A DNA stretch of 64,000 nucleotides from Escherichia coli (GTDB lineage: Bacteria; Pseudomonadota; Gammaproteobacteria; Enterobacterales; Enterobacteriaceae), in the NCBI RefSeq assembly GCF_046105845.1, contig NZ_CP151004.1. The stretch is one strand, 5' to 3'. How positions within the stretch are numbered: the stretch's first letter is position 1; every line of letters starts with the position of its first letter. Below the pieces are notes generated by a model. It searched no databases and was not told the DNA's origin. It was given only the letters and a program-made list of their open reading frames with translations. This document shows, one piece after another, positions 63,669 through 64,000 of the stretch. The translations under genes were made by a program, and so were the position numbers.

Positions 63669-64000
63669 TTATCCTTCGATAAAAGCCATCCCTGTAAATG
63701 TCCGTCGCGGGTTGCCACGTTCAATTTGATGATGGAACATTCGCCACTGCGATTTCAGCGCCGCGCTATTTTCCTGTTGCTGTTGTTCCAGCTTCCAGGC
63801 AATCAGCAATCGCGCCAGCCGCTTGTTAGCATGCCCAGAAACCAGTTTTTGCGCCCATGATGAGGCCGATACGGACTCGGACAAATCCACTGAATAGTGC
63901 CGCACCAACTTTCGCTTAATGCCCATGCGTTATCGCCATCCAGAGAAATCAGCGCCGAACGCAGCGTGTCAGAGTAGCGGCCCGTTTCTGTTTCCAGCAC
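63669..64000 (-). pseudogene. prfH: Probable prfH (release factor H homolog) remnant, apparently frame-disrupted; continues beyond window edge
   Basis: Two overlapping minus-strand ORFs in different frames (63669-63926 and 63803-64000); position next to pepD matches the recalled K-12 ykfJ/prfH pseudogene locus; no GGQ motif seen in the visible part. Confidence 0.35.

What the first reader, a model, noticed from the sequence alone, without database searches (positions are those of the whole stretch)
63669..64000. prfH-like region next to pepD appears frame-disrupted
Two overlapping minus-strand ORFs in different frames cover the region where K-12 carries the ykfJ/prfH pseudogenes, as I recall. 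The visible part shows no GGQ motif, so it is likely a decayed release-factor homolog; the gene continues past the window edge.
Basis: partly seen in the sequence, partly recalled or inferred. Interest (0 to 1): 0.3.

Follow-up and report, generated by a model that had tools for sequence, protein, structure and literature searches.

The report
Doubly deleted prfH pseudogene remnant
The end of the window holds a dead remnant of prfH, a ribosome-rescue release-factor gene, whose catalytic GGQ part was removed by a 169-base deletion that also shifts the frame; this is an ordinary pseudogene allele found in about 12% of complete E. coli genomes.

Summary
Two overlapping minus-strand ORFs (63669-63926 and 63803-64000) lie next to pepD. 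Both match the PrfH family model TIGR03072, at profile positions 143-200 and 38-94, and none of the three minus-strand frames contains GGQ.

Alignment to K-12 and to an intact ST131 rtcB2-prfH operon gives the cause. A 169-bp deletion, with its junction at window 63834|63835 and GCAT microhomology at both ends, removes prfH codons ~94-150. That block includes GGQ (residues 120-122), and the deletion shifts the frame.

The same junction is present in 659 of 5426 complete E. coli genomes. In 658 of them it sits next to the known K-12-type ~1-kb deletion (1027 bp), which fuses a 207-bp rtcB2 stub (ykfJ) to prfH codon ~30. By inference from relatives, that junction lies about 25 bp beyond the window edge.

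So this is a K-12-like prfH pseudogene that has lost a second piece. The operon had already been inactivated by the first deletion. RefSeq annotates the region as a "frameshifted; incomplete" pseudogene. There is no sign of programmed frameshifting, of an assembly artefact or of a new gene. The finding is real, correctly interpreted and ordinary.

The parts
63669..64000 (-). Visible part of the prfH pseudogene remnant. By inference from relatives, it continues about 21-25 bp past the window edge to the K-12-type rtcB2/prfH deletion junction.
   Evidence: TIGR03072 hits. 100% identical to the annotated 'frameshifted; incomplete' prfH pseudogene of strain 1190. Alignment to K-12 and to intact ST131.
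63835..64000 (-). 5' retained block, encoding PrfH residues 39-93, part of the rRNA-recognition domain. After the junction this frame runs 10 more codons ([10 protein letters not shown]) to a TGA at 63803-63805.
   Evidence: 55 of 55 residues identical to intact ST131 PrfH, with 5 synonymous differences. ORF 63803..64000.
63831..63834 (-). Junction of the 169-bp deletion. GCAT (ATGC on the + strand) is the 4-bp microhomology found at both ends of the deleted block in intact and K-12 alleles. The deleted block is prfH nt 281-449, residues ~94-150, including GGQ at 120-122.
   Evidence: The identical gap is seen in 4 other carriers. The junction 54-mer is found full-length in 659 genomes.
63669..63833 (-). 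3' retained block, encoding PrfH residues 151-204 plus the stop TAA (63669-63671). Its frame is shifted relative to the 5' block. The 85-aa ORF 63669..63926 is this block preceded by out-of-frame codons.
   Evidence: 53 of 54 residues identical to intact PrfH (R180W is the only replacement), with 7 synonymous differences; profile 143-200.
63624..63657 (.). Strong hairpin (13 pairs) in the 56-bp spacer between the convergent pepD and prfH stop codons. It is probably the pepD (or shared) transcription terminator, with a weak U tract on the + strand.
   Evidence: the 76-nt stretch folds at -31.2 kcal/mol, z = -6.2 against shuffles. The consensus scan did not flag it because the T run is short. 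The terminator function is inferred, not shown.
62155..63612 (+). pepD (cytosol nonspecific dipeptidase), the intact neighbouring gene that anchors the synteny.
   Evidence: 485-aa ORF. Annotated as pepD in relatives.

Best explanation
The region is a non-functional remnant of prfH, the second gene of the rtcB2-prfH ribosome rescue and repair operon. It decayed by two successive microhomology-mediated deletions. The first was the known 1027-bp deletion between two TACCCGGCA repeats. It removed the 3' three-quarters of rtcB2 and the first ~29 codons of prfH (the K-12 ykfJ/prfH state), and its junction lies just outside the window. The second, on that already dead background, was a 169-bp deletion between two GCAT tetranucleotides. 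It removed codons ~94-150, which cover linker 1 and most of the GGQ peptidyl-hydrolase domain including Q122, and it shifted the frame. Nothing functional is expected from the locus: it has no start codon region, no catalytic domain, no continuous frame and no RtcB2 partner. Cells with this allele should lack PrfH/RtcB2-mediated protection against colicin E3-type cleavage of 16S rRNA, as K-12 does. Shown here: the sequence anatomy, both junctions, and the population frequency and nesting of the two deletions. Inferred: the order of events, the slippage or microhomology mechanism, the lack of expression or function, and the presence of the first deletion in the window's own genome.
For:: base-level alignment of the window, strain 1190, K-12 and intact ST131 gives a 169-bp gap flanked by GCAT and a 1027-bp gap flanked by TACCCGGCA/TACCCGACA; the retained blocks are PrfH residues 39-93 and 151-204, GGQ is at 120-122 inside the gap, and the K-12 remnant is single-frame with GGQ; the two ORFs hit TIGR03072 at profile 38-94 and 143-200; the 169-bp junction is in 659 of 5426 genomes; both junctions occur together, 245 nt apart, in 658 genomes; the K-12-type junction is in 2683 genomes; the central rtcB2 segment is present in 2715 genomes; four carriers are annotated as a 207-bp RtcB fragment plus a frameshifted prfH or 'hypothetical' pseudogene; the intact operon has rtcB at 1140 bp and prfH at 615 bp (204 aa), with overlapping stop and start. 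Literature: a ~1000-nt deletion in K12 and O157 (PMC1586002); the GGQ domain is residues 108-161 and Q122 is required for repair (PMC9304027); the truncated operon of BW25113 gives no colicin E3 protection (PMC9223846).
Against: The window stops 25 bp short of the expected K-12-type junction, so the first deletion is inferred for this genome rather than seen. No complete genome matches the last 12 kb better than 98.6%, so the true extension is not available. Carriers of the 169-bp deletion have differing SNP haplotypes (8-9 differences per 388 nt). A single origin therefore requires either old age or spread by recombination. No expression data were available to show that the remnant is silent.
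Confidence: 0.94

Rival explanations
1. The frame break is a programmed ribosomal frameshift, as in the paralogous release-factor gene prfB (RF2), and the gene is functional.
For: The gene is a release-factor homolog, and RF2 is the classic case of programmed +1 frameshifting (established knowledge). Two overlapping ORFs in different frames are present.
Against: Intact prfH in ST131 is one uninterrupted 204-aa ORF. The frame change coincides exactly with a 169-bp deletion relative to both intact and K-12 alleles. The shift needed is -1/+2, not +1. The upstream frame ends in GAT TGC TGA TTG with no CUU UGA C-type site. Even a frameshifted product would lack residues 94-150, which include GGQ.
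Confidence: 0.01
2. The apparent deletion or frameshift is a sequencing or assembly error in the window.
For: Frame disruptions in single assemblies are often errors.
Against: The identical junction is present in 659 independent complete genomes, on several SNP backgrounds. A clean 169-bp gap with microhomology is not a typical homopolymer or indel error.
Confidence: 0.01
3. One of the leftover ORFs, for example the 85-aa ORF 63669-63926 that carries the PrfH C-terminal 54 residues, is expressed as a small protein with a residual or new role. Alternatively, the second deletion was selected because it removed a harmful GGQ-bearing fragment.
For: The ORF has an ATG start. The allele is common, in 12% of genomes and about a quarter of K-12-type carriers. 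The retained codons differ from the intact gene almost only synonymously, 12 synonymous to 1 replacement.
Against: No promoter-like site was found in 63400-64000. The first 24 codons of the ORF are out-of-frame sequence. The retained C-terminal piece is only part of a split domain, since the RRD is residues 2-98 plus 180-204 (PMC9304027). PGAP treats the region as a pseudogene. The synonymous bias is explained by divergence that accumulated while the gene was still functional in the ancestors. The frequency is explained by clonal descent plus recombination.
Confidence: 0.03

Closest known systems
E. coli K-12 ykfJ/prfH pseudogene pair (b0235/b0236; names from my own knowledge, architecture)
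   Same: Same locus between yafP and pepD. In relatives that are identical or closest to the window, the same 1027-bp deletion fuses a 207-bp rtcB2 5' stub to prfH codon ~30. DNA identity is 97.4% over the shared parts.
   Different: K-12's prfH remnant is one continuous frame of about 168 codons that still encodes the GGQ domain. The window has a further 169-bp deletion that removes residues ~94-150 and breaks the frame.
Intact rtcB2-prfH operon (E. coli ATCC 25922, CFT073, ST131): ribosome rescue by PrfH, then 16S rRNA re-ligation by RtcB2 after colicin E3-type cleavage (PMC9304027, PMC9223846)
   Same: Orthologous DNA at the same chromosomal position. The retained 109 codons are 108/109 identical in protein sequence to ST131 PrfH.
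   Different: The intact operon has a 379-aa RtcB2 and a 204-aa PrfH with GGQ at 120-122. The window lacks the GGQ domain and a continuous frame. By inference it also lacks the prfH N-terminus and most of rtcB2.
prfB (RF2) programmed +1 frameshift
   Same: A release-factor-family gene read in two frames.
   Different: There is no slippery CUU UGA C site, the direction of the shift is wrong, and the frame change is caused by a deletion that is absent from intact orthologs.

Membership tests
PrfH (peptide chain release factor H, NCBIfam TIGR03072) - functional member | Whole-protein score at or above the curated cutoff (166.65 bits) over the ~200-position profile | tested here: not met
   the two fragments score 86.0 and 57.7 bits and cover only profile positions 38-94 and 143-200.
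PrfH (peptide chain release factor H, NCBIfam TIGR03072) - functional member | GGQ peptidyl-hydrolase motif (G120 G121 Q122 in EcPrfH) | tested here: not met
   no GGQ in any minus-strand frame, and the motif lies in the 169-bp deleted block; the segment is not elsewhere in the window.
PrfH (peptide chain release factor H, NCBIfam TIGR03072) - functional member | Single uninterrupted ORF of about 204 codons | tested here: not met
   the two blocks are in different frames, and the upstream frame stops at 63803-63805.
PrfH (peptide chain release factor H, NCBIfam TIGR03072) - functional member | Operon with an intact upstream rtcB2 whose stop overlaps the prfH start | not testable with these tools
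   This part lies beyond the window edge. In the 100%-identical strain 1190 and the closest 12-kb relative E300010, only a 207-bp rtcB fragment remains. 658 of 659 carriers have the K-12-type junction.
prfH-derived pseudogene (orthologous remnant) | Significant homology to PrfH in the retained parts, and conserved synteny next to pepD | tested here: met
   (E 2.4e-24 and 1.1e-15). (matches annotated prfH in 5415 genomes). (yafP - rtcB - prfH - pepD order).
Programmed +1 frameshift gene (prfB type) | A conserved slippery site (CUU UGA C) with an upstream SD-like element, and a frameshift conserved in functional orthologs | tested here: not met
   the sequence at the frame end is GAT TGC TGA TTG. 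Intact orthologs are single-frame.

The most novel reading that the evidence does not exclude
The second (169-bp) deletion may not be neutral. It could have been favoured because it removed a GGQ-domain-bearing PrfH fragment that is mildly harmful when expressed from the K-12-type remnant. Alternatively, the resulting 85-aa ORF may encode a small protein with a new role. The allele is frequent (12% of complete genomes) and occurs on several haplotypes, and that pattern does not exclude selection.
Probability: 0.03. Interest if true: 0.35.

Novelty: already known. Interest (0 to 1): 0.08.

Why it matters
It matters little. The locus is a textbook case of stepwise pseudogene erosion by short-repeat deletions, in an operon whose function and whose K-12 inactivation are already published. 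It has practical value for annotation. This allele should be labelled a prfH pseudogene, not 'hypothetical protein' as in some RefSeq records. Strains carrying it can be predicted to lack RtcB2/PrfH protection against colicin E3-type ribotoxins. The three-state polymorphism could also serve as a simple lineage marker: intact in about 50% of genomes, the K-12-type deletion alone in about 37%, and both deletions in about 12%.

Tried and rejected
- Pfam scan of both ORFs gave no hits. The fragments lack the RF-1 (GGQ) domain, and the NCBIfam PrfH model was needed instead.
- Rfam at permissive E-values over 62000-64000 gave only two chance-level hits, sR28 at E 0.47 and Erse at E 0.81, both far below gathering scores. 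I rejected an RNA gene.
- The promoter/terminator scan found no promoter-like site. It found one weak terminator-like site inside the coding remnant (63966-63953, -), which is within chance expectation.
- My first junction-only 54-mer queries also picked up non-deleted genomes, because the 4-bp and 9-bp microhomologies extend one flank past the 28-nt seed. I therefore used the >=80%-coverage counts. I also designed a concatenated two-junction query to count co-occurrence.
- A 12-kb search for the window's own genome found nothing above 98.6% identity, so a true extension of the window could not be obtained.
- One MAFFT run that included the intact ST131 allele misaligned across the 1-kb gap and gave spurious 15-19% distances. 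I repeated the haplotype comparison without it.
- A literature search for prfH + pepD + deletion found nothing.

Full report
**1. The observation**

The last 332 bases of the window lie just downstream of an intact pepD (62155..63612, +) and converge on it. The ORF list shows two minus-strand ORFs in different frames. One is 63669..63926 (85 aa, ATG start). The other is 63803..64000 (65 aa, beginning at the window edge). They overlap by 124 nt.

Pfam finds nothing in either ORF. The NCBIfam equivalog model for peptide chain release factor H (TIGR03072) matches both. The edge ORF matches profile positions 38-94 (E 2.4e-24, 86 bits). The 85-aa ORF matches positions 143-200 (E 1.1e-15, 57.7 bits). 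Both scores are below the 166.65-bit cutoff, as expected for fragments. Profile positions 95-142 are therefore missing.

None of the three minus-strand frames contains GGQ. The 388 bp after pepD match DNA annotated as prfH in 5415 of 5426 complete E. coli genomes.

**2. What it is**

In one search most genomes, including K-12 and BL21, matched in two pieces spanning 557 bp. A minority matched in a single 388-bp piece. That difference points to a 169-bp gap in the window.

I fetched three annotated loci:
- Strain 1190 is 100% identical to the window over the 388 bp. It has a 207-bp 'RtcB family' fragment plus a 353-bp prfH annotated 'frameshifted; incomplete; missing N-terminus'.
- An MG1655 derivative has a 207-bp RtcB fragment plus a 507-bp prfH annotated 'missing N-terminus'.
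- An ST131 strain has an intact 1140-bp rtcB and an intact 615-bp prfH with overlapping stop and start.

Base-level alignment shows two deletions relative to the intact operon.

*The 1027-bp deletion (K-12 type).*
- It lies between TACCCGGCA in rtcB2 and TACCCG(A/G)CA in prfH.
- K-12 and strain 1190 share it.
- It removes the 3' three-quarters of rtcB2 and prfH codons 1 to ~29.
- Its junction would fall about 25 bp beyond window position 64000.

*The 169-bp deletion.*
- Among the three loci in this first alignment, only strain 1190 shares it with the window; other carriers appear in section 3.
- Its junction is at window 63834|63835.
- The tetranucleotide GCAT is present at both ends of the deleted block in K-12 and ST131.
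- It removes prfH nt 281-449, which is codons ~94-150.
- Because 169 is not a multiple of 3, the downstream part is thrown out of frame.

maps the retained blocks onto the 204-aa ST131 protein:
- Window 63835-64000 encodes residues 39-93 (55 of 55 identical).
- Window 63669-63833 encodes residues 151-204 plus the stop (53 of 54 identical; R180W is the only replacement).
- GGQ is at residues 120-122, inside the gap.

The published cryo-EM study defines the GGQ domain as residues 108-161 and the rRNA-recognition domain as residues 2-98 plus 180-204. It also shows that Q122 mutants abolish PrfH-dependent repair (PMC9304027). The window's remnant therefore lacks the catalytic centre. The GGQ-coding segment is not found anywhere else in the window.

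**3. Population context and order of events**

- A 54-nt query centred on the 169-bp junction is found full-length in 659 of 5426 genomes.
- The K-12-type junction is found full-length in 2683 genomes.
- A 601-bp probe from the central part of rtcB2 is present in 2715 genomes.

So roughly half of complete E. coli genomes keep the central rtcB2 segment and half carry the 1-kb deletion.

A query made by concatenating both junction 54-mers matches at >=80% coverage in 658 genomes, as two pieces spanning the expected 245 nt. Genomes with only the 1-kb deletion reach 79% coverage. Essentially every carrier of the 169-bp deletion therefore also carries the 1-kb deletion, while about 2000 genomes have the 1-kb deletion alone.

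The simplest reading is that the 169-bp deletion happened later, on an operon that was already dead. This order is inferred.

Four carriers from different sources, plus the window, show exactly the same gap. The four are strain 1190, 2012C-4502, UK_Dog_Liverpool and E300010. They differ at 8-9 of 388 positions, and they differ in whether yafNO is present upstream. The allele is therefore either old or has moved by recombination. Recurrent deletion at a 4-bp repeat seems less likely to me, but it is not excluded.

**4. How it works (or does not)**

Published work shows that RtcB2-PrfH rescues and re-ligates ribosomes whose 16S rRNA has been cut between A1493 and G1494 by colicin E3-type toxins (PMC9304027). 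It also shows that the truncated K-12/BW25113 operon gives no protection (PMC9223846). The ~1000-nt K-12/O157 deletion was described in 2006 (PMC1586002).

The window's allele is a further-eroded version of that pseudogene, and no function is expected from it. Both deletions have short direct repeats at their ends, 9 bp and 4 bp. That is the usual signature of replication slippage or microhomology-mediated deletion, which is an inference from established knowledge.

The retained codons differ from the intact ST131 gene by 12 synonymous changes and 1 replacement. This fits divergence that accumulated under purifying selection before inactivation, with little time since.

**5. Rivals**

- *Programmed frameshifting of the prfB type* is rejected. 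Intact orthologs are single-frame, the frame change coincides with a deletion, the shift required is -1/+2, and there is no CUU UGA C site.
- *A sequencing or assembly artefact* is rejected, because 659 independent genomes carry the identical junction.
- *An expressed small protein, or a selected second deletion,* cannot be formally excluded without expression data. It has no positive support: no promoter-like site, an out-of-frame N-terminus, only part of a split domain retained, and pseudogene annotation by PGAP.

**6. Surroundings**

The 56-bp spacer between the pepD and prfH stop codons contains a strong hairpin at 63624-63657. The 76-nt stretch folds at -31.2 kcal/mol, z = -6.2. It is probably the pepD or shared convergent terminator, although its U tract is weak and the consensus scan did not flag it. 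Rfam gives only chance-level hits.

**7. Limits**

The window ends 25 bp before the expected 1-kb-deletion junction. No complete genome matches the last 12 kb above 98.6%. The upstream state of this particular genome is therefore inferred from relatives.

I found no paper that describes the 169-bp deletion specifically. RefSeq nevertheless already annotates it as a frameshifted pseudogene in the carrier records I inspected.

**8. Verdict**

The finding is real, correctly interpreted and ordinary. It is an already-known pseudogene locus in a doubly deleted, common allelic state.

Noticed in passing
window 63624-63657: There is a strong 13-pair hairpin in the pepD/prfH convergent spacer (-31.2 kcal/mol for the 76-nt stretch, z -6.2). 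It is followed on the + strand by UUUCAUCCUU. It is likely a terminator, but the consensus scan missed it because the T run is short.
   Followed up: partly
window 63613-64000 versus L001, L004, L005, L006: The identical 169-bp deletion sits on clearly different SNP haplotypes (8-9 differences per 388 nt) and on backgrounds with and without yafNO upstream. K-12, which is not a carrier, is closer to the carrier UK_Dog_Liverpool (10 of 611) than the carriers are to each other (14-19 of 611). This suggests recombination across the locus, or an old allele.
   Followed up: partly
window 52001-64000: The last 388 bp are 100% identical to strain 1190, yet no complete RefSeq E. coli genome matches the last 12 kb better than 98.6%. 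The window's genome is either mosaic here or not closely represented in the collection.
   Followed up: no
window 63731-63733 (- strand; prfH codon 180): R180W (CGG to TGG) is the only amino-acid replacement in the retained prfH codons relative to intact ST131, against 12 synonymous differences. At this nucleotide the window shares T only with strain 1190. K-12 and the other three carriers examined have C.
   Followed up: partly
window 55701-55776 (-): This is tRNA-Thr(CGU), thrW by synteny, downstream of proA. In the relative E300010 an integrase fragment abuts this tRNA (L006 10814-10972), so the window's region below ~55700 may hold an island or its remnant.
   Followed up: no
L002 about 3656-3727 (outside the window): Between yafP and the rtcB stub, K-12 carries an extra ~72 bp (…GTGAATCGCCAGGAGCTTACATAAGTAAGTGACTGGGGTGAACG…). 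From memory it resembles an ERIC/IRU repeat. It is absent from strain 1190 and ST131 at that spot, and ST131 lacks still more of this spacer.
   Followed up: no
L004 2305-2693 and L005 2284-2693: Some RefSeq records label this same doubly deleted prfH remnant 'hypothetical protein; frameshifted' instead of prfH. This is an annotation inconsistency across genomes.
   Followed up: partly
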